Shown here piece after piece: positions 14,610-63,500 of a stretch of 64,000 nucleotides of DNA. This DNA comes from the human T2T-CHM13v2.0 reference genome, Homo sapiens. Within the stretch, counting starts at the first letter, position 1; each line of letters begins with the position of its first letter. The notes beneath the pieces are model-generated. The model was given only the letters and a program-made list of their open reading frames with translations. It made no database searches and was not told the DNA's origin. Made by a program: the position numbers and the translations under genes. The stretch lies in NCBI RefSeq assembly GCF_009914755.1, contig NC_060932.1; one strand, written 5' to 3'.

Positions 14610-17600
14610 TCACTCCAGGTCAGAATCGCTGTCCTCTGAGGAGGAGGAAACCTGAAGGTCCTCATAGAGGACGCTCGGTGGGACACGAACACAGGGACCC
14701 TCAGACTTCTCTGACACATGAGGGCTCTGAGCGAGGAAGGCTCCCGGCTTCTCAGGAGAGTGAAATGAGGGGGCCGCCAGGAGGCTGGAGCTCCAGCGTC
14801 CGTTTTCCAGTCTCCGGAAGAGCACTCTGAGAGGCTGGGCCCCATCATGGCTGGCCGCTGAGTGATGGGACATGGTGCAGGCCTGGGCAGTAGGCAGGCA
14901 AGGTGTGCTGTGCAGAGGCTGCCGGTCGACGCTGGGCACCTGGGCCGGTGTCCTCCTGCCCATCTGGGGCGACGTACTTGTTCCAAGTTCGGTTGCGGCT
15001 GGCGGAGGTTGGAGATTCTCCAGGGCCCCCAGCTCACCTCCCTGGATGGCGCTTTCGGGGATCTGGAAGGGACCCAGTCTCGGTTTCTTGGGGAAGTTCA
15101 GGCAAGCCTGAATCGGAGCCTGGGCAGGTCTCTTGGCTCCTGGCCCGAAGCTGAGATTGGAGCCTAGGCCCAAGCTGTGTGTGGCGGCTGGCGGGCAGGG
15201 CTGTGAGGTCACCGCAGGACGTTTGTCTTGTGCCTGGGGTCTGGCGGCCTGGAGCAGGCCGTGGGTTTTGGAGGCAGCCTGGGGAACTTCTCGGCAGCCA
15301 CCCTCAGGGCTGCTGTGTGTCGGCTTCACCACGAGGAGAGGCTCGCGGCCCTGGTGCCTGACTGCAGGCTGAGGCATGTCGGCCGCAGCCCCTGTCTGTC
15401 TTTCCTTTGGTCCAAGACTTGAGGAGGAGCTCAGGCTGGCTTTTCTGAGGGGAGACAGTGAAGCCAAGACGGAGCCCCTGCCAGACATTTCGGCAGCTGA
15501 GCGATCAGCGAGGACAGGGTCCACGCGCGGCCTCTTACTGGTTGTGTGGACCGGCATTGGCCCGCTTGCAACCTGAAAGAGAGGAAACAACACAGGTTAG
15601 AAGTTCCTCAGCATGGAGCCAACGTGAAAATCAAGCACATCCAAAGACAAGGTGCACACGCCATGAAATTCTTAGTACAGTATCGACAGGCGGTCCTTGG
15701 AAGTAGGGACAGACCCTCCACCTGAGTGCTGATCAGGACAAGACACATGAAAGATGCGCTCTCGAGCTATGTGTAGCTGATCTAAGCACACCATTGTTCA
15801 AAAGATCGCGTCTTGGGCATTAACTGGATCAAAGCGCCTCCACTCAGCCTTCCATGAAGTGGAACAGACTAATGCCCTTCCCGAGGCAGGTTGCTGGCTC
15901 AAGGGTACTCGGGACGTCTTCTCTGAACACATGCATGTTCCTGGGTTTCGCCTTCTCCACGTTTGGGGCCTCTGAGGGACTAATTTCCTCATGCCGCTAG
16001 GAACGTGTTGTTGGCAGGCTTGCCATAATTGGACAGAAAGAAAGCCACAGGAAATACGGCATCTTCAGATGCCTTCGCCTGGAATCCAATTGACCTGGAA
16101 GGATCGTGGAGTCCCTGACCCCAAGAAGGCAAGAAAGAGGGGTTCCCCGATTTCCTCCCGCAGACGGGAAGCTGAAAGGAAATCAACCAGGGTGACCTAG
16201 AGGAGAAAAAGACCAGGGGCCCGGGGTGACACTCGCCCTCAGATGATCAGAAGATTCCGTGGATCCTTTTCCATTCGGCAGCGGCTTCTCTGGAGGTTTC
16301 CCGGAAAACATGTGGAGGAGAGCCTTCCTCTGCGGGTCTTGTTGCCTGCAGAACAGAAGAAGGTCAGGCGGTGCCCCCTGGTTTTCCCCAGGAGACAGGG
16401 AGAACCCCGTCTGGGGCCCAGCCCCATTCCGTGTTTTGTGATACAGAAATGGACATCTGGTGCCCTTTCCGCCTCTGCACCTTCCCTCACGTGCCAACCT
16501 TCCCATCCTCCAGGTGGCCCTCTAGGCTTCCCAACTAAGGACTGTGATTTGGATTCCATCGCTTTTCCCGCTGTCGTGGGGAACCTGCACGAAGCGCCCC
16601 CGCCTCTCCCCGTCCCTGAATCTCCCAGAGCCCAAGGAGCTCCTGGGTGTGGAACCCCGGAGGACACGGAGCTCCGGCCTATTTCTCTGCAGCGTTCCTT
16701 CCCTGGCCCGGAGACGGAAAGGCACACGGTGTGCAGGTGCAGAGACACCATGTCCTTAGGAGGCAGTACCCTAAGAGTGGTGAAAACCCCTCCCACTGCT
16801 CACCTTGGTCTCTCTTCCTTCTCTCCCTTATCCTTGTTCAAGGGCCCCGGGTTGGCTTCACCCCGGGGCTTCCATGGTTTCAGGTTTTCCTTCCCTTCCT
16901 TTTTCCCCAAGGTCGCTGGAACCAGGGCTGCCTTCCAGCACTTCATGGGGCACCTGGTACTTCTGGCCGTGTGGCCAAAGGCCCCGCAGTTTTTGCACTT
17001 GAGCTGTGGGTGGAAAGGAAGTGATGTCAGTGAGTGAGCTGAAGCCACAGGCAGCGATCCCACGTCAACATTGGGACGGATTGTGAATTCAGAGCTGAAT
17101 AAGGATTCCAAAGAGGGGACACCGGCATGGGGGCCGTTAAGTGCTGGGAGAGTTCGGATACGATGTTCCCTCGCAAAGCCCATGGGACGGAGGAACTCTG
17201 AAAGGAAGGACTCAAGGTTCCAAGGGGCACGATGGTGAAGCCGATGTCAACAACGCAGCCAAACGTGGCTACACAGGACTCTAAGTAGAAAGGGAGGTTG
17301 CCCCCAAGAGTCTCTCAAGGGACCTATCGGGCCGGGGAGAAGGTCCCAAGCCACGCCCACCTTGGATGGGAAAAGCAACCTGGCTGGTGGTGACAGAACT
17401 CTTTGGAATCCAACCCAGTCTCTGAGGACCGTGGGACACCCCCTCCCCCCGTCCCCACCCCCACCCCGATACCCAAGAGATCCAGGGCTAGACTTACCCT
17501 GGGATCTTCTTCATCGGGCGGGGGAGCCCTTGGCCCAACTGGGGCCCTCCGCTGCTTCTGGAGGGTCTGGGCTCTCACCAGTCTCTTGGCCCAAGATTTG

Positions 17601-17620
17601 GGGTCCCGACGTGCCATCAT
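14610..17620 (-). CDS. FAM90A: FAM90A family protein, copy 1, 464 aa. Exons 17620-17498, 17003-16804, 16345-16237, 15572-14610; GC donor at the last intron
   Basis: MMARRDPKSWAKRLVRAQ...LKCKNCGAFGHTARSTRCPMK...VLYEDLQVSSSSEDSDSDLE; 123+200+109+963=1395 nt with matched splice phases. Confidence 0.93.
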
Positions 17621-22260: not shown

Positions 22261-25200
22261 TCACTCCAGGTCAGAATCGCTGTCCTCTGAGGAGGAGGAA
22301 ACCTGAAGGTCCTCATAGAGGACGCTCGGTGGGACACGAACACAGGGAGCCTCAGACTTCTCTGACACATGAGGGCTCTGAGCGAGGAAGGCTCCCGGCT
22401 TCTCAGGAGAGTGAAATGAGGGGGCCGCCAGGAGGCTGGAGCTCCAGCGTCCGTTTTCCAGTCTCCGGAAGAGCACTCTGAGAGGCTGGGCCCCATCATG
22501 GCTGGCCGCTGAGTGATGGGACATGGTGCAGGCCTGGGCAGTAGGCAGGCAAGGTGTGCTGTGCGGAGGCTGCCGGTCGACGCTGGGCACCTGGGCCGGT
22601 GTCCTCCTGCCCATCTGGGGCGACGTACTTGTTCCAAGTTCGGTTGCGGCTGGCGGAGGTTGGAGATTCTCCAGGGCCCCCAGCTCACCTCCCTGGATGG
22701 CGCTTTCGGGGATCTGGAAGGGACCCAGTCTCGGTTTCTTGGGGAAGTTCAGGCAAGCCTGAATCGGAGCCTGGGCAGGTCTCTTGGCTCCTGGCCCGAA
22801 GCTGAGATTGGAGCCTAGGCCCAAGCTGTGTGTGGCGGCTGGCGGGCAGGGCTGTGAGGTCACCGCAGGACGTTTGTCTTGTGCCTGGGGTCTGGCGGCC
22901 TGGAGCAGGCCGTGGGTTTTGGAGGCAGCCTGGGGAACTTCTCGGCAGCCACCCTCAGGGCTGCTGTGTGTCGGCTTCACCACGAGGAGAGGCTCGCGGC
23001 CCTGGTGCCTGACTGCAGGCTGAGGCATGTCGGCCGCAGCCCCTGTCTGTCTTTCCTTTGGTCCAAGACTTGAGGAGGAGCTCAGGCTGGCTTTTCTGAG
23101 GGGAGACAGTGAAGCCAAGACGGAGCCCCTGCCAGACATTTCGGCAGCTGAGCGATCAGCGAGGACAGGGTCCACGCGCGGCCTCTTACTGGTTGTGTGG
23201 ACCGGCATTGGCCCGCTTGCAACCTGAAAGAGAGGAAACAACACAGGTTAGAAGTTCCTCAGCATGGAGCCAACGTGAAAATCAAGCACATCCAAAGACA
23301 AGGTGCACACGCCATGAAATTCTTAGTACAGTATCGACAGGCGGTCCTTGGAAGTAGGGACAGACCCTCCACCTGAGTGCTGATCAGGACAAGACACATG
23401 AAAGATGCGCTCTCGAGCTATGTGTAGCTGATCTAAGCACACCATTGTTCAAAAGATCGCGTCTTGGGCATTAACTGGATCAAAGCGCCTCCACTCAGCC
23501 TTCCATGAAGTGGAACGGACTAATGCCCTTCCCGAGGCAGGTTGCTGGCTCAAGGGTACTCGGGACGTCTTCTCTGAACACATGCATGTTCCTGGGTTTC
23601 GCCTTCTCCACGTTTGGGGCCTCTGAGGGACTAATTTCCTCATGCCGCTAGGAACGTGTTGTTGGCAGGCTTGCCATAATTGGACAGAAAGAAAGCCACA
23701 GGAAATACGGCATCTTCAGATGCCTTCGCCTGGAATCCAATTGACCTGGAAGGATCGTGGAGTCCCTGACCCCAAGAAGGCAAGAAAGAGGGGTTCCCCG
23801 ATTTCCTCCCGCAGACGGGAAGCTGAAAGGAAATCAACCAGGGTGACCTAGAGGAGAAAAGGACCAGGGGCCCGGGGTGACACTCACCCTCAGATGATCA
23901 GAAGATTCCGTGGATCCTTTTCCATTCGGCAGCGGCTTCTCTGGAGGTTTCCCGGAAAACATGTGGAGGAGAGCCTTCCTCTGCGGGTCTTGTTGCCTGC
24001 AGAACAGAAGAAGGTCAGGCGGTGCCCCCTGGTTTTCCCCAGGAGACAGGGAGAACCCCGTCTGGGGCCCAGCCCCATTCCGTGTTTTGTGATACAGAAA
24101 TGGACATCTGGTGCCCTTTCCGCCTCTGCACCTTCCCTCACGTGCCAACCTTCCCATCCTCCAGGTGGCCCTCTAGGCTTCCGAACTAAGGACTGTGATT
24201 TGGATTCCATCGCTTTTCCCCCTGTCGTGGGGAACCTGCACGAAGCGCCCCCGCCTCTCCCCGTCCCTGAATCTCCCAGAGCCCAAGGAGCTCCTGGGTG
24301 TGGAACCCCGGAGGACACGGAGCTCCGGCCTATTTCTCTGCAGCGCTCCTTCCCTGGCCCGGAGACGGAAAGGCACACGGTGTGCAGGTGCAGAGACACC
24401 ATGTCCTTAGGAGGCAGTACCCTAAGAGTGGTGAAAACCCCTCCCACTGCTCACCTTGGTCTCTCTTCCTTCTCTCCCTTATCCTTGTTCAAGGGCCCCG
24501 GGTTGGCTTCACCCCGGGGCTTCCATGGTTTCAGGTTTTCCTTCCCTTCCTTTTTCCCCAAGGTCGCTGGAACCAGGGCTGCCTTCCAGCACTTCATGGG
24601 GCACCTGGTACTTCTGGCCGTGTGGCCAAAGGCCCCGCAGTTTTTGCACTTGAGCTGTGGGTGGAAAGGAAGTGATGTCAGTGAGTGAGCTGAAGCCACA
24701 GGCAGCGATCCCACGTCAACATTGGGACGGATTGTGAATTCAGAGCTGAATAAGGATTCCAAAGAGGGGACACCGGCATGGGGGCCGTTAAGTGCTGGGA
24801 GAGTTCGGGTACGATGTTCCCTCGCAAAGCCCATGGGACGGAGGAACTCTGAAAGGAAGGACTCAAGGTTCCAAGGGGCACGATGGTGAAGCCGATGTCA
24901 ACAACGCAGCCAAACGTGGCTACACAGGACTCTAAGTAGAAAGGGAGGTTGCCCCCAAGAGTCTCTCAAGGGACCTATCGGGCCGGGGAGAAGGTCCCAA
25001 GCCACGCCCACCTTGGATGGGAAAAGCAACCTGGCTGGTGGTGACAGAACTCTTTGGAATCCAACCCAGTCTCTGAGGACCGTGGGACACCCCCTCCCCC
25101 CGTCCCCACCCCCACCCCGATACCCAAGAGATCCAGGGCTAGACTTACCCTGGGATCTTCTTCATCGGGCGGGGGAGCCCTTGGCCCAACTGGGGCCCTC

Positions 25201-29911: not shown

Positions 29912-32900
29912 TCACTCCAGGTCAGAATCGCTGTCCTCTGAGGAGGAGGAAACCTGAAGGTCCTCATAGAGGACGCTCGGTGGGACACGAACACAGGGAG
30001 CCTCAGACTTCTCTGACACATGAGGGCTCTGAGCGAGGAAGGCTCCCGGCTTCTCAGGAGAGTGAAATGAGGGGGCCGCCAGGAGGCTGGAGCTCCAGCG
30101 TCCGTTTTCCAGTCTCCGGAAGAGCACTCTGAGAGGCTGGGCCCCATCATGGCTGGCCGCTGAGTGATGGGACATGGTGCAGGCCTGGGCAGTAGGCAGG
30201 CAAGGTGTGCTGTGCGGAGGCTGCCGGTCGACGCTGGGCACCTGGGCCGGTGTCCTCCTGCCCATCTGGGGCGACGTACTTGGTCCAAGTTCGGTTGCGG
30301 CTGGCGGAGGTTGGAGATTCTCCAGGGCCCCCAGCTCACCTCCCTGGATGGCGCTTTCGGGGATCTGGAAGGGACCCAGTCTCGGTTTCTTGGGGAAGTT
30401 CAGGCAAGCCTGAATCGGAGCCTGGGCAGGTCTCTTGGCTCCTGGCCCGAAGCTGAGATTGGAGCCTAGGCCCAAGCTGTGTGTGGCGGCTGGCGGGCAG
30501 GGCTGTGAGGTCACCGCAGGACGTTTGTCTTGTGCCTGGGGTCTGGCGGCCTGGAGCAGGCCGTGGGTTTTGGAGGCAGCCTGGGGAACTTCTCGGCAGC
30601 CACCCTCAGGGCTGCTGTGTGTCGGCTTCACCACGAGGAGAGGCTCGCGGCCCTGGTGCCTGACTGCAGGCTGAGGCATGTCGGCCGCAGCCCCTGTCTG
30701 TCTTTCCTTTGGTCCAAGACTTGAGGAGGAGCTCAGGCTGGCTTTTCTGAGGGGAGACAGTGAAGCCAAGACGGAGCCCCTGCCAGACATTTCGGCAGCT
30801 GAGCGATCAGCGAGGACAGGGTCCACGCGCGGCCTCTTACTGGTTGTGTGGACCGGCATTGGCCCGCTTGCAACCTGAAAGAGAGGAAACAACACAGGTT
30901 AGAAGTTCCTCAGCATGGAGCCAACGTGAAAATCAAGCACATCCAAAGACAAGGTGCACACGCCATGAAATTCTTAGTACAGTATCGACAGGCGGTCCTT
31001 GGAAGTAGGGACAGACCCTCCACCTGAGTGCTGATCAGGACAAGACACATGAAAGATGCGCTCTCGAGCTATGTGTAGCTGATCTAAGCACACCATTGTT
31101 CAAAAGATCGCGTCTTGGGCATTAACTGGATCAAAGCGCCTCCACTCAGCCTTCCATGAAGTGGAACGGACTAATGCCCTTCCCGAGGCAGGTTGCTGGC
31201 TCAAGGGTACTCGGGACGTCTTCTCTGAACACATGCATGTTCCTGGGTTTCGCCTTCTCCACGTTTGGGGCCTCTGAGGGACTAATTTCCTCATGCCGCT
31301 AGGAACGTGTTGTTGGCAGGCTTGCCATAATTGGACAGAAAGAAAGCCACAGGAAATACGGCATCTTCAGATGCCTTCGCCTGGAATCCAATTGACCTGG
31401 AAGGATCGTGGAGTCCCTGACCCCAAGAAGGCAAGAAAGAGGGGTTCCCCGATTTCCTCCCGCAGACGGGAAGCTGAAAGGAAATCAACCAGGGTGACCT
31501 AGAGGAGAAAAGGACCAGGGGCCCGGGGTGACACTCACCCTCAGATGATCAGAAGATTCCGTGGATCCTTTTCCATTCGGCAGCGGCTTCTCTGGAGGTT
31601 TCCCGGAAAACATGTGGAGGAGAGCCTTCCTCTGCGGGTCTTGTTGCCTGCAGAACAGAAGAAGGTCAGGCGGTGCCCCCTGGTTTTCCCCAGGAGACAG
31701 GGAGAACCCCGTCTGGGGCCCAGCCCCATTCCGTGTTTTGTGATACAGAAATGGACATCTGGTGCCCTTTCCGCCTCTGCACCTTCCCTCACGTGCCAAC
31801 CTTCCCATCCTCCAGGTGGCCCTCTAGGCTTCCGAACTAAGGACTGTGATTTGGATTCCATCGCTTTTCCCCCTGTCGTGGGGAACCTGCACGAAGCGCC
31901 CCCGCCTCTCCCCGTCCCTGAATCTCCCAGAGCCCAAGGAGCTCCTGGGTGTGGAACCCCGGAGGACACGGAGCTCCGGCCTATTTCTCTGCAGCGCTCC
32001 TTCCCTGGCCCGGAGACGGAAAGGCACACGGTGTGCAGGTGCAGAGACACCATGTCCTTAGGAGGCAGTACCCTAAGAGTGGTGAAAAACCCTCCCACTG
32101 CTCACCTTGGTCTCTCTTCCTTCTCTCCCTTATCCTTGTTCAAGGGCCCCGGGTTGGCTTCACCCCGGGGCTTCCATGGTTTCAGGTTTTCCTTCCCTTC
32201 CTTTTTCCCCAAGGTCGCTGGAACCAGGGCTGCCTTCCAGCACTTCATGGGGCACCTGGTACTTCTGGCCGTGTGGCCAAAGGCCCCGCAGTTTTTGCAC
32301 TTGAGCTGTGGGTGGAAAGGAAGTGATGTCAGTGAGTGAGCTGAAGCCACAGGCAGCGATCCCACGTCAACATTGGGACGGATTGTGAATTCAGAGCTGA
32401 ATAAGGATTCCAAAGAGGGGACACCGGCATGGGGGCCGTTAAGTGCTGGGAGAGTTCGGGTACGATGTTCCCTCGCAAAGCCCATGGGACGGAGGAACTC
32501 TGAAAGGAAGGACTCAAGGTTCCAAGGGGCACGATGGTGAAGCCGATGTCAACAACGCAGCCAAACGTGGCTACACAGGACTCTAAGTAGAAAGGGAGGT
32601 TGCCCCCAAGAGTCTCTCAAGGGACCTATCGGGCCGGGGAGAAGGTCCCAAGCCACGCCCACCTTGGATGGGAAAAGCAACCTGGCTGGTGGTGACAGAA
32701 CTCTTTGGAATCCAACCCAGTCTCTGAGGACCGTGGGACACCCCCTCCCCCCGTCCCCACCCCCACCCCGATACCCAAGAGATCCAGGGCTAGACTTACC
32801 CTGGGATCTTCTTCATCGGGCGGGGGAGCCCTTGGCCCAACTGGGGCCCTCCGCTGCTTCTGGAGGGTCTGGGCTCTCACCAGTCTCTTGGCCCAAGATT

Positions 32901-37562: not shown

Positions 37563-40500
37563 TCACTCCAGGTCAGAATCGCTGTCCTCTGAGGAGGAGG
37601 AAACCTGAAGGTCCTCATAGAGGACGCTCGGTGGGACACGAACACAGGGAGCCTCAGACTTCTCTGACACATGAGGGCTCTGAGCGAGGAAGGCTCCCGG
37701 CTTCTCAGGAGAGTGAAATGAGGGGGCCGCCAGGAGGCTGGAGCTCCAGCGTCCGTTTTCCAGTCTCCGGAAGAGCACTCTGAGAGGCTGGGCCCCATCA
37801 TGGCTGGCCGCTGAGTGATGGGACATGGTGCAGGCCTGGGCAGTAGGCAGGCAAGGTGTGCTGTGCGGAGGCTGCCGGTCGACGCTGGGCACCTGGGCCG
37901 GTGTCCTCCTGCCCATCTGGGGCGACGTACTTGTTCCAAGTTCGGTTGCGGCTGGCGGAGGTTGGAGATTCTCCAGGGCCCCCAGCTCACCTCCCTGGAT
38001 GGCGCTTTCGGGGATCTGGAAGGGACCCAGTCTCGGTTTCTTGGGGAAGTTCAGGCAAGCCTGAATCGGAGCCTGGGCAGGTCTCTTGGCTCCTGGCCCG
38101 AAGCTGAGATTGGAGCCTAGGCCCAAGCTGTGTGTGGCGGCTGGCGGGCAGGGCTGTGAGGTCACCGCAGGACGTTTGTCTTGTGCCTGGGGTCTGGCGG
38201 CCTGGAGCAGGCCGTGGGTTTTGGAGGCAGCCTGGGGAACTTCTCGGCAGCCACCCTCAGGGCTGCTGTGTGTCGGCTTCACCACGAGGAGAGGCTCGCG
38301 GCCCTGGTGCCTGACTGCAGGCTGAGGCATGTCGGCCGCAGCCCCTGTCTGTCTTTCCTTTGGTCCAAGACTTGAGGAGGAGCTCAGGCTGGCTTTTCTG
38401 AGGGGAGACAGTGAAGCCAAGACGGAGCCCCTGCCAGACATTTCGGCAGCTGAGCGATCAGCGAGGACAGGGTCCACGCGCGGCCTCTTACTGGTTGTGT
38501 GGACCGGCATTGGCCCGCTTGCAACCTGAAAGAGAGGAAACAACACAGGTTAGAAGTTCCTCAGCATGGAGCCAACGTGAAAATCAAGCACATCCAAAGA
38601 CAAGGTGCACACGCCATGAAATTCTTAGTACAGTATCGACAGGCGGTCCTTGGAAGTAGGGACAGACCCTCCACCTGAGTGCTGATCAGGACAAGACACA
38701 TGAAAGATGCGCTCTCGAGCTATGTGTAGCTGATCTAAGCACACCATTGTTCAAAAGATCGCGTCTTGGGCATTAACTGGATCAAAGCGCCTCCACTCAG
38801 CCTTCCATGAAGTGGAACGGACTAATGCCCTTCCCGAGGCAGGTTGCTGGCTCAAGGGTACTCGGGACGTCTTCTCTGAACACATGCATGTTCCTGGGTT
38901 TCGCCTTCTCCACGTTTGGGGCCTCTGAGGGACTAATTTCCTCATGCCGCTAGGAACGTGTTGTTGGCAGGCTTGCCATAATTGGACAGAAAGAAAGCCA
39001 CAGGAAATACGGCATCTTCAGATGCCTTCGCCTGGAATCCAATTGACCTGGAAGGATCGTGGAGTCCCTGACCCCAAGAAGGCAAGAAAGAGGGGTTCCC
39101 CGATTTCCTCCCGCAGACGGGAAGCTGAAAGGAAATCAACCAGGGTGACCTAGAGGAGAAAAGGACCAGGGGCCCGGGGTGACACTCACCCTCAGATGAT
39201 CAGAAGATTCCGTGGATCCTTTTCCATTCGGCAGCGGCTTCTCTGGAGGTTTCCCGGAAAACATGTGGAGGAGAGCCTTCCTCTGCGGGTCTTGTTGCCT
39301 GCAGAACAGAAGAAGGTCAGGCGGTGCCCCCTGGTTTTCCCCAGGAGACAGGGAGAACCCCGTCTGGGGCCCAGCCCCATTCCGTGTTTTGTGATACAGA
39401 AATGGACATCTGGTGCCCTTTCCGCCTCTGCACCTTCCCTCACGTGCCAACCTTCCCATCCTCCAGGTGGCCCTCTAGGCTTCCGAACTAAGGACTGTGA
39501 TTTGGATTCCATCGCTTTTCCCCCTGTCGTGGGGAACCTGCACGAAGCGCCCCCGCCTCTCCCCGTCCCTGAATCTCCCAGAGCCCAAGGAGCTCCTGGG
39601 TGTGGAACCCCGGAGGACACGGAGCTCCGGCCTATTTCTCTGCAGCGCTCCTTCCCTGGCCCGGAGACGGAAAGGCACACGGTGTGCAGGTGCAGAGACA
39701 CCATGTCCTTAGGAGGCAGTACCCTAAGAGTGGTGAAAACCCCTCCCACTGCTCACCTTGGTCTCTCTTCCTTCTCTCCCTTATCCTTGTTCAAGGGCCC
39801 CGGGTTGGCTTCACCCCGGGGCTTCCATGGTTTCAGGTTTTCCTTCCCTTCCTTTTTCCCCAAGGTCGCTGGAACCAGGGCTGCCTTCCAGCACTTCATG
39901 GGGCACCTGGTACTTCTGGCCGTGTGGCCAAAGGCCCCGCAGTTTTTGCACTTGAGCTGTGGGTGGAAAGGAAGTGATGTCAGTGAGTGAGCTGAAGCCA
40001 CAGGCAGCGATCCCACGTCAACATTGGGACGGATTGTGAATTCAGAGCTGAATAAGGATTCCAAAGAGGGGACACCGGCATGGGGGCCGTTAAGTGCTGG
40101 GAGAGTTCGGGTACGATGTTCCCTCGCAAAGCCCATGGGACGGAGGAACTCTGAAAGGAAGGACTCAAGGTTCCAAGGGGCACGATGGTGAAGCCGATGT
40201 CAACAACGCAGCCAAACGTGGCTACACAGGACTCTAAGTAGAAAGGGAGGTTGCCCCCAAGAGTCTCTCAAGGGACCTATCGGGCCGGGGAGAAGGTCCC
40301 AAGCCACGCCCACCTTGGATGGGAAAAGCAACCTGGCTGGTGGTGACAGAACTCTTTGGAATCCAACCCAGTCTCTGAGGACCGTGGGACACCCCCTCCC
40401 CCCGTCCCCACCCCCACCCCGATACCCAAGAGATCCAGGGCTAGACTTACCCTGGGATCTTCTTCATCGGGCGGGGGAGCCCTTGGCCCAACTGGGGCCC

Positions 40501-45215: not shown

Positions 45216-48200
45216 TCACTCCAGGTCAGAATCGCTGTCCTCTGAGGAGGAGGAAACCTGAAGGTCCTCATAGAGGACGCTCGGTGGGACACGAACACAG
45301 GGAGCCTCAGACTTCTCTGACACATGAGGGCTCTGAGCGAGGAAGGCTCCCGGCTTCTCAGGAGAGTGAAATGAGGGGGCCGCCAGGAGGCTGGAGCTCC
45401 AGCGTCCGTTTTCCAGTCTCCGGAAGAGCACTCTGAGAGGCTGGGCCCCATCATGGCTGGCCGCTGAGTGATGGGACATGGTGCAGGCCTGGGCAGTAGG
45501 CAGGCAAGGTGTGCTGTGCGGAGGCTGCCGGTCGACGCTGGGCACCTGGGCCGGTGTCCTCCTGCCCATCTGGGGCGACGTACTTGTTCCAAGTTCGGTT
45601 GCGGCTGGCGGAGGTTGGAGATTCTCCAGGGCCCCCAGCTCACCTCCCTGGATGGCGCTTTCGGGGATCTGGAAGGGACCCAGTCTCGGTTTCTTGGGGA
45701 AGTTCAGGCAAGCCTGAATCGGAGCCTGGGCAGGTCTCTTGGCTCCTGGCCCGAAGCTGAGATTGGAGCCTAGGCCCAAGCTGTGTGTGGCGGCTGGCGG
45801 GCAGGGCTGTGAGGTCACCGCAGGACGTTTGTCTTGTGCCTGGGGTCTGGCGGCCTGGAGCAGGCCGTGGGTTTTGGAGGCAGCCTGGGGAACTTCTCGG
45901 CAGCCACCCTCAGGGCTGCTGTGTGTCGGCTTCACCACGAGGAGAGGCTCGCGGCCCTGGTGCCTGACTGCAGGCTGAGGCATGTCGGCCGCAGCCCCTG
46001 TCTGTCTTTCCTTTGGTCCAAGACTTGAGGAGGAGCTCAGGCTGGCTTTTCTGAGGGGAGACAGTGAAGCCAAGACGGAGCCCCTGCCAGACATTTCGGC
46101 AGCTGAGCGATCAGCGAGGACAGGGTCCACGCGCGGCCTCTTACTGGTTGTGTGGACCGGCATTGGCCCGCTTGCAACCTGAAAGAGAGGAAACAACACA
46201 GGTTAGAAGTTCCTCAGCATGGAGCCAACGTGAAAATCAAGCACATCCAAAGACAAGGTGCACACGCCATGAAATTCTTAGTACAGTATCGACAGGCGGT
46301 CCTTGGAAGTAGGGACAGACCCTCCACCTGAGTGCTGATCAGGACAAGACACATGAAAGATGCGCTCTCGAGCTATGTGTAGCTGATCTAAGCACACCAT
46401 TGTTCAAAAGATCGCGTCTTGGGCATTAACTGGATCAAAGCGCCTCCACTCAGCCTTCCATGAAGTGGAACAGACTAATGCCCTTCCCGAGGCAGGTTGC
46501 TGGCTCAAGGGTACTCGGGACGTCTTCTCTGAACACATGCATGTTCCTGGGTTTCGCCTTCTCCACGTTTGGGGCCTCTGAGGGACTAATTTCCTCATGC
46601 CGCTAGGAACGTGTTGTTGGCAGGCTTGCCATAATTGGACAGAAAGAAAGCCACAGGAAATACGGCATCTTCAGATGCCTTCGCCTGGAATCCAATTGAC
46701 CTGGAAGGATCGTGGAGTCCCTGACCCCAAGAAGGCAAGAAAGAGGGGTTCCCCGATTTCCTCCCGCAGACGGGAAGCTGAAAGGAAATCAACCAGGGTG
46801 ACCTAGAGGAGAAAAAGACCAGGGGCCCGGGGTGACACTCGCCCTCAGATGATCAGAAGATTCCGTGGATCCTTTTCCATTCGGCAGCGGCTTCTCTGGA
46901 GGTTTCCCGGAAAACATGTGGAGGAGAGCCTTCCTCTGCGGGTCTTGTTGCCTGCAGAACAGAAGAAGGTCAGGCGGTGCCCCCTGGTTTTCCCCAGGAG
47001 ACAGGGAGAACCCCGTCTGGGGCCCAGCCCCATTCCGTGTTTTGTGATACAGAAATGGACATCTGGTGCCCTTTCCGCCTCTGCACCTTCCCTCACGTGC
47101 CAACCTTCCCATCCTCCAGGTGGCCCTCTAGGCTTCCCAACTAAGGACTGTGATTTGGATTCCATCGCTTTTCCCGCTGTCGTGGGGAACCTGCACGAAG
47201 CGCCCCCGCCTCTCCCCGTCCCTGAATCTCCCAGAGCCCAAGGAGCTCCTGGGTGTGGAACCCCGGAGGACACGGAGCTCCGGCCTATTTCTCTGCAGCG
47301 TTCCTTCCCTGGCCCGGAGACGGAAAGGCACACGGTGTGCAGGTGCAGAGACACCATGTCCTTAGGAGGCAGTACCCTAAGAGTGGTGAAAACCCCTCCC
47401 ACTGCTCACCTTGGTCTCTCTTCCTTCTCTCCCTTATCCTTGTTCAAGGGCCCCGGGTTGGCTTCACCCCGGGGCTTCCATGGTTTCAGGTTTTCCTTCC
47501 CTTCCTTTTTCCCCAAGGTCGCTGGAACCAGGGCTGCCTTCCAGCACTTCATGGGGCACCTGGTACTTCTGGCCGTGTGGCCAAAGGCCCCGCAGTTTTT
47601 GCACTTGAGCTGTGGGTGGAAAGGAAGTGATGTCAGTGAGTGAGCTGAAGCCACAGGCAGCGATCCCACGTCAACATTGGGACGGATTGTGAATTCAGAG
47701 CTGAATAAGGATTCCAAAGAGGGGACACCGGCATGGGGGCCGTTAAGTGCTGGGAGAGTTCGGATACGATGTTCCCTCGCAAAGCCCATGGGACGGAGGA
47801 ACTCTGAAAGGAAGGACTCAAGGTTCCAAGGGGCACGATGGTGAAGCCGATGTCAACAACGCAGCCAAACGTGGCTACACAGGACTCTAAGTAGAAAGGG
47901 AGGTTGCCCCCAAGAGTCTCTCAAGGGACCTATCGGGCCGGGGAGAAGGTCCCAAGCCACGCCCACCTTGGATGGGAAAAGCAACCTGGCTGGTGGTGAC
48001 AGAACTCTTTGGAATCCAACCCAGTCTCTGAGGACCGTGGGACACCCCCTCCCCCCGTCCCCACCCCCACCCCGATACCCAAGAGATCCAGGGCTAGACT
48101 TACCCTGGGATCTTCTTCATCGGGCGGGGGAGCCCTTGGCCCAACTGGGGCCCTCCGCTGCTTCTGGAGGGTCTGGGCTCTCACCAGTCTCTTGGCCCAA

Positions 48201-52869: not shown

Positions 52870-55800
52870 TCACTCCAGGTCAGAATCGCTGTCCTCTGAG
52901 GAGGAGGAAACCTGAAGGTCCTCATAGAGGACGCTCGGTGGGACACGAACACAGGGAGCCTCAGACTTCTCTGACACATGAGGGCTCTGAGCGAGGAAGG
53001 CTCCCGGCTTCTCAGGAGAGTGAAATGAGGGGGCCGCCAGGAGGCTGGAGCTCCAGCGTCCGTTTTCCAGTCTCCGGAAGAGCACTCTGAGAGGCTGGGC
53101 CCCATCATGGCTGGCCGCTGAGTGATGGGACATGGTGCAGGCCTGGGCAGTAGGCAGGCAAGGTGTGCTGTGCGGAGGCTGCCGGTCGACGCTGGGCACC
53201 TGGGCCGGTGTCCTCCTGCCCATCTGGGGCGACGTACTTGTTCCAAGTTCGGTTGCGGCTGGCGGAGGTTGGAGATTCTCCAGGGCCCCCAGCTCACCTC
53301 CCTGGATGGCGCTTTCGGGGATCTGGAAGGGACCCAGTCTCGGTTTCTTGGGGAAGTTCAGGCAAGCCTGAATCGGAGCCTGGGCAGGTCTCTTGGCTCC
53401 TGGCCCGAAGCTGAGATTGGAGCCTAGGCCCAAGCTGTGTGTGGCGGCTGGCGGGCAGGGCTGTGAGGTCACCGCAGGACGTTTGTCTTGTGCCTGGGGT
53501 CTGGCGGCCTGGAGCAGGCCGTGGGTTTTGGAGGCAGCCTGGGGAACTTCTCGGCAGCCACCCTCAGGGCTGCTGTGTGTCGGCTTCACCACGAGGAGAG
53601 GCTCGCGGCCCTGGTGCCTGACTGCAGGCTGAGGCATGTCGGCCGCAGCCCCTGTCTGTCTTTCCTTTGGTCCAAGACTTGAGGAGGAGCTCAGGCTGGC
53701 TTTTCTGAGGGGAGACAGTGAAGCCAAGACGGAGCCCCTGCCAGACATTTCGGCAGCTGAGCGATCAGCGAGGACAGGGTCCACGCGCGGCCTCTTACTG
53801 GTTGTGTGGACCGGCATTGGCCCGCTTGCAACCTGAAAGAGAGGAAACAACACAGGTTAGAAGTTCCTCAGCATGGAGCCAACGTGAAAATCAAGCACAT
53901 CCAAAGACAAGGTGCACACGCCATGAAATTCTTAGTACAGTATCGACAGGCGGTCCTTGGAAGTAGGGACAGACCCTCCACCTGAGTGCTGATCAGGACA
54001 AGACACATGAAAGATGCGCTCTCGAGCTATGTGTAGCTGATCTAAGCACACCATTGTTCAAAAGATCGCGTCTTGGGCATTAACTGGATCAAAGCGCCTC
54101 CACTCAGCCTTCCATGAAGTGGAACGGACTAATGCCCTTCCCGAGGCAGGTTGCTGGCTCAAGGGTACTCGGGACGTCTTCTCTGAACACATGCATGTTC
54201 CTGGGTTTCGCCTTCTCCACGTTTGGGGCCTCTGAGGGACTAATTTCCTCATGCCGCTAGGAACGTGTTGTTGGCAGGCTTGCCATAATTGGACAGAAAG
54301 AAAGCCACAGGAAATACGGCATCTTCAGATGCCTTCGCCTGGAATCCAATTGACCTGGAAGGATCGTGGAGTCCCTGACCCCAAGAAGGCAAGAAAGAGG
54401 GGTTCCCCGATTTCCTCCCGCAGACGGGAAGCTGAAAGGAAATCAACCAGGGTGACCTAGAGGAGAAAAGGACCAGGGGCCCGGGGTGACACTCACCCTC
54501 AGATGATCAGAAGATTCCGTGGATCCTTTTCCATTCGGCAGCGGCTTCTCTGGAGGTTTCCCGGAAAACATGTGGAGGAGAGCCTTCCTCTGCGGGTCTT
54601 GTTGCCTGCAGAACAGAAGAAGGTCAGGCCGTGCCCCCTGGTTTTCCCCAGGAGACAGGGAGAACCCCGTCTGGGGCCCAGCCCCATTCCGTGTTTTGTG
54701 ATACAGAAATGGACATCTGGTGCCCTTTCCGCCTCTGCACCTTCCCTCACGTGCCAACCTTCCCATCCTCCAGGTGGCCCTCTAGGCTTCCCAACTAAGG
54801 ACTGTGATTTGGATTCCATCGCTTTTCCCCCTGTCGTGGGGAACCTGCACGAAGCGCCCCCGCCTCTCCCCGTCCCTGAATCTCCCAGAGCCCAAGGAGC
54901 TCCTGGGTGTGGAACCCCGGAGGACACGGAGCTCCGGCCTATTTCTCTGCAGCGCTCCTTCCCTGGCCCGGAGACGGAAAGGCACACGGTGTGCAGGTGC
55001 AGAGACACCATGTCCTTAGGAGGCAGTACCCTAAGAGTGGTGAAAACCCCTCCCACTGCTCACCTTGGTCTCTCTTCCTTCTCTCCCTTATCCTTGTTCA
55101 AGGGCCCCGGGTTGGCTTCACCCCGGGGCTTCCATGGTTTCAGGTTTTCCTTCCCTTCCTTTTTCCCCAAGGTCGCTGGAACCAGGGCTGCCTTCCAGCA
55201 CTTCATGGGGCACCTGGTACTTCTGGCCGTGTGGCCAAAGGCCCCGCAGTTTTTGCACTTGAGCTGTGGGTGGAAAGGAAGTGATGTCAGTGAGTGAGCT
55301 GAAGCCACAGGCAGCGATCCCACGTCAACATTGGGACGGATTGTGAATTCAGAGCTGAATAAGGATTCCAAAGAGGGGACACCGGCATGGGGGCCGTTAA
55401 GTGCTGGGAGAGTTCGGGTACGATGTTCCCTCGCAAAGCCCACGGGACGGAGGAACTCTGAAAGGAAGGACTCAAGGTTCCAAGGGGCACGATGGTGAAG
55501 CCGATGTCAACAACGCAGCCAAACGTGGCTACACAGGACTCTAAGTAGAAAGGGAGGTTGCCCCCAAGAGTCTCTCAAGGGACCTATCGGGCCGGGGAGA
55601 AGGTCCCAAGCCACGCCCACCTTGGATGGGAAAAGCAACCTGGCTGGTGGTGACAGAACTCTTTGGAATCCAACCCAGTCTCTGAGGACCGTGTGACAGC
55701 CCCTCCCCCCGTCCCCACCCCCACCCCGATACCCAAGAGATCCAGGGCTAGACTTACCCTGGGATCTTCTTCATCGGGCGGGGGAGCCCTTGGCCCAACT

Positions 55801-60523: not shown

Positions 60524-63500
60524 TCACTCCAGGTCAGAATCGCTGTCCTCTGAGGAGGAGGAAACCTGAAGGTCCTCATAGAGGACGCTCGGTGGGACAC
60601 GAACACAGGGAGCCTCAGACTTCTCTGACACATGAGGGCTCTGAGCGAGGAAGGCTCCCGGCTTCTCAGGAGAGTGAAATGAGGGGGCCGCCAGGAGGCT
60701 GGAGCTCCAGCGTCCGTTTTCCAGTCTCCGGAAGAGCACTCTGAGAGGCTGGGCCCCATCATGGCTGGCCGCTGAGTGATGGGACATGGTGCAGGCCTGG
60801 GCAGTAGGCAGGCAAGGTGTGCTGTGCGGAGGCTGCCGGTCGACGCTGGGCACCTGGGCCGGTGTCCTCCTGCCCATCTGGGGCGACGTACTTGGTCCAA
60901 GTTCGGTTGCGGCTGGCGGAGGTTGGAGATTCTCCGGGGCCCCCAGCTCACCTCCCTGGATGGCGCTTTCGGGGACCTGGAAGGGACCCAGTCTCGGTTT
61001 CTTGGGGAAGTTCAGGCAAGCCTGAATCGGAGCCTGGGCAGGTCTCTTGGCTCCTGGCCCGAAGCTGAGATTGGAGCCTAGGCCCAAGCTGTGTGTGGCG
61101 GCTGGCGGGCAGGGCTGTGAGGTCACCGCAGGACGTTTGTCTTGTGCCTGGGGTCTGGCAGCCTGGGGCAGTCCGTGGGTTTTGGAGGCAGCCTGGGGAA
61201 CTTCTCGGCAGCCACCCTCGGGGCGGCTGTGTGTCGGCTTCACCACGAGGAGAGGCTCGCGGCCCTGGTGCCTGACTGCAGGCTGAGGCATGTCAGCCGC
61301 AGCCCCTGTCTGTCTTTCCTTTGATCCAAGACTTGAGGAGGAGCTCAGGCTGGCTTTTCTGAGGGGAGACAGTGAAGCCAAGACGGAGCCCCTGCCAGAC
61401 ATTGCGGTAGCTGAGCGATCAGCGAGGACAGGGTCCAAGCGCGGCCTCTTACTGGTTGTGTGGACCGGCATTGGCCCGCTTGCAACCTGAAAGAGAGGAA
61501 ACAACACAGGTTAGAAGTTCCTCAGCATGGAGCCAACGTGAAAATCAAGCACATCCAAAGACAAGGTGCACACGCCATGAAATTCTTAGTACAGTATCGA
61601 CAGGCGGTCCTTGGAAGTAGGGACAGACCCTCCACCTGAGTGCTGATCAGGACAAGACACATGAAAGATGCGCTCTCGAGCTATGTGTAGCTGATCTAAG
61701 CACACCATTGTTCAAAAGATCGCGTCTTGGGCATTAACTGGATCAAAGCGCCTCCACTCAGCCTTCCATGAAGTGGAACGGACTAATGCCCTTCCCAAGG
61801 CAGGTTGCTGGCTCAAGGGTACTCGGGACGTCTTCTCTGAACACATGCATGTTTCTGGGTTTCGCCTTCTCCACGTTTGGGGCCTCTGAGGGACTAATTT
61901 CCTCATGCCGCTAGGAACATGTTGTTGGCAGGCTTGCCATAATTGAACAGAAAGAAAGCAACAGGAAATACGGCATGTTCAGATGCCTTCGCCTGGAATC
62001 CAATTGACCTGGAAGGATCGTGGAGTCCCTGACCCCAAGAAGGCAAGAAAGAGGGGTTCCCCGATTTCCTCCCGCAGACGGGAAGCTGAAAGGAAATCAA
62101 CCAGGGTGACCTAGAGGAGAAAAAGACCAGGGGCCCGGGGTGACACTCGCCGTCAGATAATCAGAAGATTCCGTGGATCCTTTTCCATTCGGCAGCGGCT
62201 TCTCTGGAGGTTTCCCGGAAAACATGTGGAGGAGAGCCTTCCTCTGCGGGTCTTGTTGCCTGCAGAACAGAAGAAGGTCAGGCCGTGCCCCCTGGTTTTC
62301 CCCAGGAGACAGGGAGAACCCCGTCTGGGGCCCAGCCCCATTCCGTGTTTTGTGATACAGAAATGGACATCTGGTGCCCTTTCCGCCTCTGCACCTTCCC
62401 TCACGTGCCAACCTTCCCATCCTCCAGGTGGCCCTCTAGGCTTCCCAACTAAGGACTGTGATTTGGATTCCATCGCTTTTCCCCCTGTCGTGGGGAACCT
62501 GCACGAAGCGCCCCCGCCTCTCCCCGTCCCTGAATCTCCCAGAGCCCAAGGAGCTCCTGGGTGTGGAGCCCCGGAGGACACGGAGCTCCGGCCTATTTCT
62601 CTGCAGCGTTCCTTCCCTGGCCCGGAGACGGAAAGGCACACGGTGTGCAGGTGCAGAGACACCATGTCCTTAGGAGGCAGTACCCTAAGAGTGGTGAAAA
62701 CCCCTCCCACTGCTCACCTTGGTCTCTCTTCCTTCTCTCCCTTATCCTTGTTCAAGGGCCCCGGGTTGGCTTCACCCCGGGGCTTCCATGGTTTCAGGTT
62801 TTCCTTCCCTTCCTTTTTCCCCAAGGTCGCTGGAACCAGGGCTGCCTTCCAGCACTTCATGGGGCACCTGGTACTTCTGGCCGTGTGGCCAAAGGCCCCG
62901 CAGTTTTTGCACTTGAGCTGTGGGTGGAAAGGAAGTGATGTCAGTGAGTGAGCTGAAGCCACAGACAGCGATCCCACGTCAACATTGGGACGGATTGTGA
63001 ATTCAGAGCTGAATAAGGATTCCAAAGAGGGGACACCGGCATGGGGGCCGTTAAGTGCTGGGAGAGTTCGGATACGATGTTCCCTCGCAAAGCCCACGGG
63101 ACGGAGGAACTCTGAAAGGAAGGACTCAAGGTTCCAAGGGGCACGATGGTGAAGCCGATGTCAACAACGCAGCCAAACGTGGCTACACAGGACTCTAAGT
63201 AGAAAGGGAGGTTGCCCCCAAGAGTCTCTCAAGGGACCTATCGGGCCGGGGAGAAGGTCCCAAGCCACGCCTACCTTGGATGGGAAAAGCAACCTGGCTG
63301 GTGGTGACAGAACTCTTTGGAATCCAACCCAGTCTCTGAGGACCGTGTGACAGCCCCTCCCCCCGTCCCCACCCCCACCCCGATACCCAAGAGATCCAGG
63401 GCTAGACTTACCCTGGGATCTTCTTCATCGGGCGGGGGAGCCCTTGGCCCAACTGGGGCCCTCCGCTGCTTCTGGAGGGTCTGGGCTCTCACCAGTCTCT

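What the first reader, a model, noticed from the sequence alone, without database searches (positions are those of the whole stretch)
14610..14672. FAM90A C-terminus resembles the EAF/AFF/TAF7 acidic docking motif
Seen: the terminus VLYEDLQVSSSSEDSDSDLE is invariant in all seven copies, including the divergent one. From recall, to be verified: EAF1/2 end in LRNDLQLSESGSDSDD, AFF1/AFF4 contain LEDDLQLSDSEDSD and LKDDLKLSSSEDSD, and the EAF1 and TAF7 acidic motifs bind the MED26 N-terminal (TFIIS-N-like) domain. Inference: FAM90A may mimic super-elongation-complex or TFIID partners of Mediator MED26, with CK2-type serine phosphorylation. Together with the zinc knuckle and DUX4 promoter, this suggests an amplified, undescribed Pol II initiation-to-elongation adaptor or competitor for zygotic genome activation.
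Basis: inference. Interest (0 to 1): 0.85.

Follow-up and report, generated by a model that had tools for sequence, protein, structure and literature searches.

The report
Conserved acidic docking tail of FAM90A
The last 20 residues of FAM90A proteins are the best-conserved part of this amplified, early-embryo gene family, and they closely resemble the short motif that EAF1 and AFF4 use to dock on Mediator subunit MED26, but binding has not been tested.

Summary
VLYEDLQVSSSSEDSDSDLE-stop lies at 14610-14672(-) and in 7 of 7 FAM90A copies in the window. That invariance means little, because the 63 bases are identical at the DNA level in all seven recent duplicates.

The real signal is deeper. 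The tail is the most conserved block of FAM90A in divergent placental homologues, above the zinc knuckle. It also survives in chr19 paralogues that are only 32-33% identical, with 6 synonymous and 2 non-synonymous changes.

EAF1 ends NDLQLSESGSDSDD, AFF4 has LKDDLKLSSSEDSD and TAF7 has FNDLSSSSEDEDE. Print defines an LXXDLXLS "DLXLS" motif plus an S/D/E run that binds the MED26 N-terminal domain. FAM90A has LXXDLXVS plus such a run, at a disordered C-terminus as in EAF1.

"Undescribed" is only partly right. FAM90A1 is already published as a tethered transcription activator with a mapped activation domain and BET partners, as DUX4-induced, and as enriched in day-3 embryos. No held paper links FAM90A to MED26.

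Binding remains untested because the complex predictor was unavailable. Published FAM90A1 partners and burst kinetics do not point to Mediator.

Verdict: a real, conserved motif. MED26-type docking is the best single hypothesis, at about 0.4.

The parts
14610..14672 (-). C-terminal motif VLYEDLQVSSSSEDSDSDLE plus stop codon, copy 1 (annotated FAM90A6P). This is the finding itself.
   Evidence: Translation; exact-match scan.
22261..22323 (-). Same motif plus stop, copy 2 (FAM90A7).
   Evidence: 0 mismatches; last exon translated.
29912..29974 (-). Same motif plus stop, copy 3 (LOC128966594).
   Evidence: 0 mismatches.
37563..37625 (-). Same motif plus stop, copy 4 (LOC124906716).
   Evidence: 0 mismatches.
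45216..45278 (-). Same motif plus stop, copy 5 (LOC128966609).
   Evidence: 0 mismatches.
52870..52932 (-). Same motif plus stop, copy 6 (LOC124906717).
   Evidence: 0 mismatches.
60524..60586 (-). Same motif plus stop, copy 7. This is the most divergent copy in the window and has no gene row in the annotation given.
   Evidence: 0 mismatches; 13 nt differences elsewhere in the last exon.
14610..15572 (-). Last coding exon of copy 1 (320 codons plus stop). It encodes a mostly disordered region that ends in the motif.
   Evidence: Open frame. AF2 model of the equivalent exon of copy 2: mean pLDDT 52, tail blocks 54-58, no secondary structure in the tail.
24532..24654 (-). Approximate position of the CCHC zinc knuckle (PF15288) in copy 2 (FAM90A7). 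It is the only Pfam domain of the protein and its presumed tether.
   Evidence: PF15288 matches residues 41-82 of the 464-aa database protein P0004, E 3.5e-23. I mapped the coordinates by hand from the annotated exons, so they are approximate.

Best explanation
The FAM90A C-terminus, S-V-L-Y-[ED]-D-L-x-[VL]-S-S-S-S-E-[DE]-S-D, is a short linear motif under strong purifying selection, sitting at the end of a disordered region.

It most likely works like the C-terminal MED26-binding region of EAF1 and the DLXLS/SDE module of AFF1/AFF4. The hydrophobic L..DL.V part would dock in the hydrophobic pocket of a TFIIS-N-type domain, with MED26 as the prime candidate. The following serine/acidic run, probably made more negative by CK2-type phosphorylation, would sit on the invariant basic patch (R61, K62, K63). 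This would contribute to the published activator activity of FAM90A, with the zinc knuckle or other regions providing the tether.

Shown: the motif, its conservation, its disordered C-terminal setting, and its likeness to EAF1, AFF4 and TAF7.

Inferred: binding to MED26, phosphorylation, and that this tail is the mapped activation domain.
For: (1) Conservation.
- In a 34-sequence alignment, all six invariant columns (S300, L302, D305, L306, S310, S311) lie in the tail.
- Among 27 divergent homologues, LYEDLQVSSSSE is the best-conserved 12-mer at 0.92. The zinc knuckle scores 0.76 and the mean is 0.48.
- An anchored tail was found in 134 of 230 family proteins. Many of the rest are N-terminal fragments; a few full-length tails depart too far from the anchor pattern to be counted. 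The 82 distinct 18-mers have L 80, D 74, L 80, V/L/I 82 and S 79 at the consensus positions. In 109 of the 134 the motif ends within 3 residues of the C-terminus.
- The chr19 paralogues, 32-33% identical over the exon, keep the tail with 6 synonymous and 2 non-synonymous codon changes in the intact copy, and 6 and 3 in the copy that also carries an in-frame stop.

(2) Match to a defined motif.
- Print gives LXXDLXLS plus an S/D/E motif in the AF4 and EAF families, with DLXLS binding MED26 (PMC8387021 passages; PMC6339877).
- Alanine replacement of S, G, S, D in the EAF1 tail, or of three residues in AF4/AFF4, abolishes MED26-NTD binding, as does MED26 R61A/K62A (PMC9133132 passages).
- FAM90A's fixed positions are the consensus positions. 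L..DL.[LV][ST] is found in 33 of 34 tails and the strict consensus in 3 of 34.

(3) Direct comparison.
- The only hhalign hit between the full-length FAM90A and EAF1 profiles is tail to tail: 20 columns, 45% identity, P 0.0044.
- 9 of 18 residues are identical without gaps.
- AFF4 shares DL.[LV]SSSEDSD.

(4) The tail fits the published architecture of TND-interacting motifs: a hydrophobic anchor plus a serine-rich acidic linker that is often phosphorylated (PMC9987994 passages).

(5) MED26 R61, K62 and K63 are invariant in 29 of 29 vertebrates.

(6) FAM90A1 activates transcription when tethered and has a mapped activation domain.
Against: - No binding evidence of any kind exists. The complex prediction could not be run.
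- The human copies carry V, not L, at the last hydrophobic consensus position. FAM90A1, the only copy tested in print, also has P in place of the consensus S.
- The hhalign probability is only 7.9%. Short acidic motifs are degenerate, and no proteome-wide background count was possible.
- A whole-genome six-frame search with the 20-mer returned only FAM90A copies (59 of 59 candidates), not AFF4 or EAF1.
- The text of the activator screen names BRD2/3/4, not Mediator or SEC, as FAM90A1 partners.
- FAM90A1 raises the active fraction of a reporter but not its intensity. The same preprint's model puts Mediator subunits and SEC-associated factors on the intensity side.
- AF2 predicts no helix in the isolated tail.
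- The text does not give the position of the FAM90A1 activation domain.
Confidence: 0.4

Rival explanations
1. The tail is a generic acidic-hydrophobic activation domain. It makes fuzzy contacts with several coactivators (CBP/p300, other Mediator subunits, BET proteins) and has no particular specificity for MED26 or TFIIS-N-type domains.
For: The activator-screen preprint reports that active fragments are enriched in acidic and hydrophobic residues. FAM90A1 has a mapped activation domain and BET partners. Its active-fraction kinetics resemble those the model assigns to acetyltransferase and remodeller recruiters rather than to Mediator or SEC.
Against: Generic acid blobs tolerate sequence drift. 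Here single positions (L, D, L, SSS) are fixed in 74-82 of 82 distinct tails, and the spacing is constant. The fixed positions coincide with a defined docking consensus. The motif's placement at the very C-terminus is also conserved.
Confidence: 0.25
2. The tail is a phospho-regulated motif read by something outside transcription. Candidates are an LC3/GABARAP-interacting region (Y-E-D-L), a SUMO-interacting motif with CK2 serines, a degron or a sorting signal, controlling FAM90A turnover or location.
For: [WFY]..[LIV] is present in 33 of 34 tails, and CK2-type sites in 34 of 34. The SSSEDSD run resembles, from recall only, the serine-acidic flank of the PML SUMO-interacting motif.
Against: The aromatic position is the least fixed of the hydrophobic positions: Y in 60 of 82, with H, E, C, L and Q making up 19 of the other 22. 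That argues against an aromatic anchor. By inspection, the conserved block SVLYEDLQVSSSS holds no canonical SUMO-interacting core of three hydrophobic residues in four. The 13 of 34 regex matches, scanned over the last 27 residues, are not accounted for by the conserved block. The published activity of FAM90A1 is transcriptional.
Confidence: 0.15
3. The tail is autoinhibitory. It folds back on the protein's own basic parts (zinc knuckle, PKKPRL-type basic block, LRVLFRRL hairpin) and gates nucleic-acid or partner binding until it is phosphorylated or displaced.
For: The protein combines a basic CCHC knuckle, conserved basic blocks and a strongly acidic C-terminus. Tails of this kind are known in other chromatin proteins (general knowledge, not tested here).
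Against: Fold-back tails need charge, not a fixed L..DL.V pattern. The AF2 model shows no contact or order in the tail.
Confidence: 0.1
4. The conservation is not at the protein level. It would reflect gene conversion, an RNA or DNA element, or annotation artefact, and the tail would have no function.
For: Within the window the identity is fully explained by recent duplication. Several copies are annotated as pseudogenes.
Against: The chr19 versus chr8 tails show 6 synonymous and 2 non-synonymous changes, including a TCT-to-AGT serine codon switch. The motif persists across primates, rodents, bats, ungulates, whales, carnivores, tree shrew and armadillo at 28-45% overall identity.
Confidence: 0.03

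Closest known systems
C-terminal MED26-binding region of EAF1 (and EAF2)
   Same: Both lie at the very C-terminus and share L-x-x-D-L-Q-[LV]-S followed by a run of S, D and E. Nine of 18 residues are identical without gaps, and this is the only profile-profile hit between the two families. In EAF1 the S-G-S-D residues of the acidic run are needed for Mediator contact (PMC9133132).
   Different: FAM90A has V where EAF1 has L, four serines in place of S-E-S-G, and a proline-rich lead-in instead of EAF1's QLMNTL. The rest of the proteins are unrelated: a zinc knuckle against an EAF domain. EAF is found across vertebrates, whereas all named FAM90A hits are placental mammals. Binding of FAM90A is untested. 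EAF2 was not examined here.
DLXLS plus SDE module of the pSER domain of AFF1/AFF4 (AF4 family)
   Same: AFF4 reads LKDDLKLSSSEDSDGEQ, against FAM90A LYEDLQVSSSSEDSDSD, so the D-L-x-[LV]-S-S-S-E-D-S-D core is shared. In print, DLXLS binds MED26 and the SDE motif binds SL1.
   Different: In AFF4 the motif is internal and is followed by a separate long SDE exon and an NKW motif. FAM90A has only a short acidic run and then ends, with no NKW motif seen. The AFF1 peptide was not checked here.
TAF7 acidic stretch (FNDLSSSSEDEDE, residue 223 of 349)
   Same: The D-L and S-S-S-S-E-D core is shared. TAF7 is reported to contact MED26 (passage in PMC13324577).
   Different: TAF7 lacks the x-[LV] pair between DL and the serines, and its stretch is internal. 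That this stretch lies in the MED26-binding fragment of TAF7 is my recall of Lens et al. 2017. That paper is not held; I saw only its reference listing.
TND-interacting motifs (TIMs) of transcription elongation factors
   Same: Both are disordered, with a hydrophobic anchor followed by an acidic, serine-rich, often phosphorylated linker that reads a basic patch on a five-helix TFIIS-N-type domain (PMC9987994 passages).
   Different: No FxGF element, which is optional. No helix is predicted for the free tail. The preferred TFIIS-N-type domain, if any, is unknown.

Membership tests
DLXLS motif of AF4/EAF families (MED26-binding) | Sequence consensus L-x-x-D-L-x-L-S (PMC8387021). | tested here: not met
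   The window copies read L-Y-E-D-L-Q-V-S, with V at the last hydrophobic position. The strict consensus is met in 3 of 34 aligned homologues (lemur and tree shrew among those named). L..DL.[LV][ST] is met in 33 of 34. It is therefore not filed as a strict member; it is a one-position conservative variant.
DLXLS motif of AF4/EAF families (MED26-binding) | A serine/aspartate/glutamate run directly after the motif, needed for MED26 contact in EAF1. | tested here: met
   SSSSEDSDSD follows directly. It is conserved in the family. The requirement in EAF1 comes from PMC9133132 passages.
DLXLS motif of AF4/EAF families (MED26-binding) | Direct binding to the MED26 N-terminal domain that is lost with MED26 R61A/K62A. 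| not testable with these tools
There is no wet assay.
TND-interacting motif (TIM) | Lies in an intrinsically disordered region. | tested here: met
   AF2 on the last exon with a 34-sequence alignment gives tail pLDDT of 54-58 and no secondary structure.
TND-interacting motif (TIM) | Obligate short helix with F/V/L/I anchors, followed by an acidic linker. | tested here: inconclusive
   The anchors V, L, L, V and the acidic run are present. No helix is predicted for the free tail, which does not exclude folding on binding.
SUMO-interacting motif with CK2 serines | Hydrophobic core of type [VIL][VIL]x[VIL] or [VIL]x[VIL][VIL]. | tested here: not met
   By inspection, the conserved block SVLYEDLQVSSSS holds no such core. 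A regex over the last 27 residues matched 13 of 34 tails, and these matches are not accounted for by the conserved block.
LC3-interacting region | Conserved aromatic anchor in [WFY]-x-x-[LIV]. | tested here: inconclusive
   Y-E-D-L is present in the human copies. The aromatic position is Y in only 60 of 82 distinct tails, with H, E, C, L and Q making up 19 of the other 22.
FAM90A family (Pfam PF15288 zinc knuckle) | N-terminal zf-CCHC_6 domain. | tested here: met
   PF15288 matches residues 41-82 of P0004 (a 464-aa human protein, 97% identical over the last exon) at E 3.5e-23, 81.6 bits against a cut-off of 22.

The most novel reading that the evidence does not exclude
FAM90A proteins are a placental-mammal invention, amplified to 56 chr8 copies in this human genome. 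They are switched on by DUX4 at the cleavage stage and carry a mimic of the EAF/AFF/TAF7 docking motif. In this reading they occupy the single peptide-binding site of the MED26 N-terminal domain. That would either bring Mediator to wherever the zinc knuckle is tethered, or compete with the super- and little-elongation complexes and TFIID for Mediator during embryonic genome activation.
Probability: 0.2. Interest if true: 0.8.

Novelty: new variant of a known kind. Interest (0 to 1): 0.55.

Why it matters
FAM90A is one of the most amplified protein-coding families in the human genome. One search found 56 chr8 copies, one on chr12 and two on chr19. It sits in the copy-number-variable beta-defensin region.

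FAM90A1 is DUX4-induced and enriched in day-3 embryos, yet it has no known mechanism beyond acting as an activator when tethered. A deeply conserved C-terminal motif that matches a defined Mediator-docking peptide turns "function unknown" into one cheap experiment: tail peptide against the MED26 N-terminal domain, wild type and R61A/K62A.

If binding holds, it adds a lineage-specific, dosage-variable player to the MED26 switch between initiation and elongation. If it fails, the motif is still the obvious handle for finding the true partner.

Tried and rejected
- Complex prediction (MED26 residues 1-92 from alignment A2, plus FAM90A residues 281-320 from alignment A1). At it was declared unavailable, so nothing was folded and there is no result either way.\n- Whole-genome six-frame search with the 20-residue tail. 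All 59 candidates were FAM90A copies, and AFF4 and EAF1 were not picked up. This says little, because the first look is word-based.\n- PDB sequence search with the last 40 residues: 0 hits at E up to 10. They bear directly on the claim.\n- A proteome-wide count of L..DL.[LV]S plus an acidic run could not be made, because no proteome is on hand and the genome is too large to lay.\n- The AFF1, AFF2, AFF3 and EAF2 motif exons were not fetched.
Full report
**Observation**

Window 14610-14672 on the minus strand reads VLYEDLQVSSSSEDSDSDLE followed by a stop. The same 63 bases occur seven times with no mismatch, once per 7651-7654-bp repeat unit. None of 100 shuffles gave any match.

The statement is therefore correct, but the invariance has no evolutionary weight. 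The whole 963-nt last exon differs by only 0-2 nt among six copies and by 13 nt in the seventh. About 0.85 changes would be expected in 63 nt of the most divergent copy.

All seven copies keep an intact 464-codon frame at the annotated exon offsets, including the copy annotated as pseudogene FAM90A6P.

**Conservation beyond the window**

A six-frame search of the window's own genome with the last exon gave 71 matches:
- 56 on chr8 at 93-100% identity
- FAM90A1 on chr12 at 93%
- two paralogues on chr19 at 32-33%
- 12 weak, stop-ridden fragments

A search with the 20-residue tail found exactly the first 59. In 48 of them the tail is identical.

The chr19 paralogues still end SVLYEDLLVTSSSEDSDSD and SVLYEDFLVTSSSEDSDSD. 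Against the chr8 tail, the intact copy shows 6 synonymous and 2 non-synonymous codon changes in 19 codons, including a TCT-to-AGT serine switch. The other copy, which carries an in-frame stop, shows 6 and 3. That is purifying selection on the peptide.

A database search returned 95 homologues. Every hit that carries a species name is a placental mammal: apes, monkeys, lemur, tarsier, tree shrew, bats, horse family, whales, camel, ruminants, squirrel, murid and cricetid rodents, canids and armadillo. Identity over the exon falls as low as 28%. Almost every sequence that reaches the C-terminus ends in SVLY[ED]DL[QRL][VL]SSSSE[ED]SD.

In an alignment of 34 sequences, all six invariant columns lie in the tail. 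Among the 27 most divergent sequences the best-conserved 12-mers are:

| Block | Score |
|---|---|
| LYEDLQVSSSSE (tail) | 0.92 |
| zinc-knuckle block | 0.76 |
| next non-knuckle block | 0.70 |
| mean over all columns | 0.48 |

A profile search of 1.84 billion representatives gave 237 hits. Over the 230 family proteins then in hand, 134 carry an anchored tail; many of the others are N-terminal fragments, and a few full-length tails depart too far from the anchor pattern to be counted. The 82 distinct 18-mers give this profile:

| Position (human residue) | Count out of 82 |
|---|---|
| S300 | S 73 |
| V301 | V 72 |
| L302 | L 80 |
| Y303 | Y 60 |
| E304 | E or D 77 |
| D305 | D 74 |
| L306 | L 80 |
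| Q307 | variable |
| V308 | V 68, L 12, I 2 |
| S309 | S 79 |
| S310 | S 82 |
| S311 | S 80 |

In 109 of the 134 proteins the motif ends within three residues of the C-terminus.

**Setting**

The only Pfam domain is the CCHC zinc knuckle PF15288 near the N-terminus. An AF2 model of the last exon is disordered throughout (mean pLDDT 52), apart from one confident beta-hairpin at residues 249-265. The tail has pLDDT 54-58 and no secondary structure. The tail is thus a short linear motif at the end of a disordered region.

**Comparison with the recalled motifs, using sequences from the tools**

| Protein | Sequence read |
|---|---|
| EAF1 | last exon reads NDLQLSESGSDSDD then stop; database proteins end ...QLMNTLRNDLQLSESGSDSDD (83 of 120 hits carry L..DL.LS in the last 24 residues; the rest are fragments or alternative models) |
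| AFF4 | ...SSMLKDDLKLSSSEDSDGEQ in one exon, followed by a separate serine/acid-rich exon |
| TAF7 | FNDLSSSSEDEDE at residue 223 of 349 |

FAM90A and EAF1 share 9 of 18 residues without gaps. When the full-length FAM90A profile was compared with a full-length EAF1 profile of 25 sequences, the single hit was tail to tail: 20 columns, 45% identity, P 0.0044, probability 7.9%. This is a real but statistically modest likeness. It is best read as a shared or convergent motif, not as homology of the proteins.

**What print says about the motif**

I saw passages only, not whole papers.
- PMC8387021 defines the DLXLS motif with consensus LXXDLXLS and an SDE motif in both the AF4 and EAF families. 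DLXLS binds MED26 and SDE binds SL1. PMC6339877 agrees.
[quoted passage not shown] Replacing three residues there, or S, G, S, D in EAF1, with alanine abolishes binding, as does MED26 R61A/K62A.
- The TND review PMC9987994 describes TND-interacting motifs as a short helix with F/V/L/I anchors plus an acidic, serine- and threonine-rich, often phosphorylated linker, with an optional FxGF element.

FAM90A's fixed positions L302, D305, L306, V308 and S309 fall on the fixed positions of LXXDLXLS. Of its variable positions, E304 and Q307 fall on X positions; Y303, also an X position, is nearly invariant in the 34-sequence alignment but the least fixed hydrophobic position family-wide.

The difference is V for the last L. 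The strict consensus is met in 3 of 34 homologues, and L..DL.[LV][ST] in 33 of 34. MED26 R61, K62 and K63 are invariant in 29 of 29 vertebrate sequences.

**What print says about FAM90A**

- FAM90A1 was a hit in an ORFeome-wide tethering screen for activators. A transactivation domain was mapped by 60-residue tiles, but its position is not given in the text. AP-MS and BioID found BRD2, BRD3 and BRD4 (bioRxiv 10.1101/2021.07.30.454360, passages).
- A second preprint shows that FAM90A1 raises the active fraction of a reporter but not its intensity. Its model places Mediator subunits and SEC-associated factors on the intensity side (10.1101/2022.06.01.494187, passages).
- FAM90A1 is induced 5.5- and 11.8-fold in the two tables of DUX4/DUX4c-expressing cells (PMC5323140, table passage).
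- It is listed at 128-fold in the comparison of day-3 embryos with trophectoderm (PMC3382239, table passage).
- No held paper contains both FAM90A and MED26.
- The four papers that contain DLXLS (three were listed, and I read two) were not checked for FAM90A.

**Mechanism**

The best single reading is a DLXLS/SDE-type docking motif for a TFIIS-N-type domain, with MED26 first among candidates, tuned by CK2-type phosphorylation of the serine run. I put this at about 0.4.

In its favour are the position-by-position match, the C-terminal placement as in EAF1, the acidic run known to matter in EAF1, and the published activator activity.

Against it:
- There is no binding evidence.
- V replaces L at the last hydrophobic position.
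- FAM90A1, the only tested copy, has P for the consensus S.
- The named partners are BET proteins.
- The kinetic signature is not the one predicted for Mediator or SEC recruiters.

The rivals are:
- a generic acidic activation domain (0.25)
- a phospho-motif for a non-transcriptional reader (0.15), weakened by the variable aromatic position and the lack of a SUMO-interacting core
- an autoinhibitory acidic tail (0.1)
- no protein-level function (0.03), close to excluded by the synonymous-change pattern

**What could not be done**

- The complex prediction never ran and was then withdrawn.
- No proteome-wide background count was possible.
- AFF1-3 and EAF2 were not checked.

**Verdict**

The likeness to a defined MED26-docking motif is real and not in the held literature, while the claims of binding, competition and a role in genome activation remain hypotheses. 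The family is not wholly undescribed.

I rate it a new variant of a known kind of motif, of moderate to good interest, because a single cheap binding experiment would decide it.

Noticed in passing
window about 22426-22479(-) in FAM90A7, and the same offset in each copy (residues 249-265 of the last-exon protein P0002): The only confidently folded element of the last exon is a beta-hairpin, RVLFRR-LENGR-WSSSLL, with block pLDDT 97. It is also the third most conserved block of the family. Its alternating hydrophobic and basic strand resembles, from recall, peptides that bind the ET domain of BET proteins, and FAM90A1 is reported to bind BRD2/3/4.
   Followed up: no
window 18812, 26463, 34114, 41765, 49418, 57072 (+): TAACCTAATCA matches a recalled DUX4-type consensus, TAAYCYAATCA. 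It occurs once per repeat unit: 6 matches against 0.09 expected. Each lies about 1.2 kb upstream of a FAM90A start codon. This fits the published DUX4 induction of FAM90A1.
   Followed up: partly
window 14610-17620(-) (FAM90A6P); also the copies ending at 45216 and 60524: The copy annotated as a pseudogene has an intact 464-codon frame, with 2 amino-acid differences from FAM90A7. Three of the seven copies have GC instead of GT at the donor after the third coding exon, including one that RefSeq calls protein-coding.
   Followed up: partly
P0002 residues 155-166 (window about 22726-22761(-) in FAM90A7): A conserved basic block, NPPKKPRL, looks like a nuclear localisation signal. It is the fourth most conserved block.
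   Followed up: no
G000 chr13, 14, 15, 21 and 22 short-arm coordinates, and chr19:20181904: Twelve weak matches to the FAM90A last exon (28-36% identity), each with 6-8 stop codons. Eleven of them lie at low coordinates on chr13, 14, 15, 21 and 22 or at chr21:23.0 Mb. They look like old degenerate FAM90A-like fragments.
   Followed up: no
database proteins P0094 and P0338: A sifaka gene model named as a USP17-like hydrolase ends in the FAM90A tail. A 1012-residue representative matches the FAM90A profile in 8 stretches. Both are probably fused gene models from tandem arrays.
   Followed up: no
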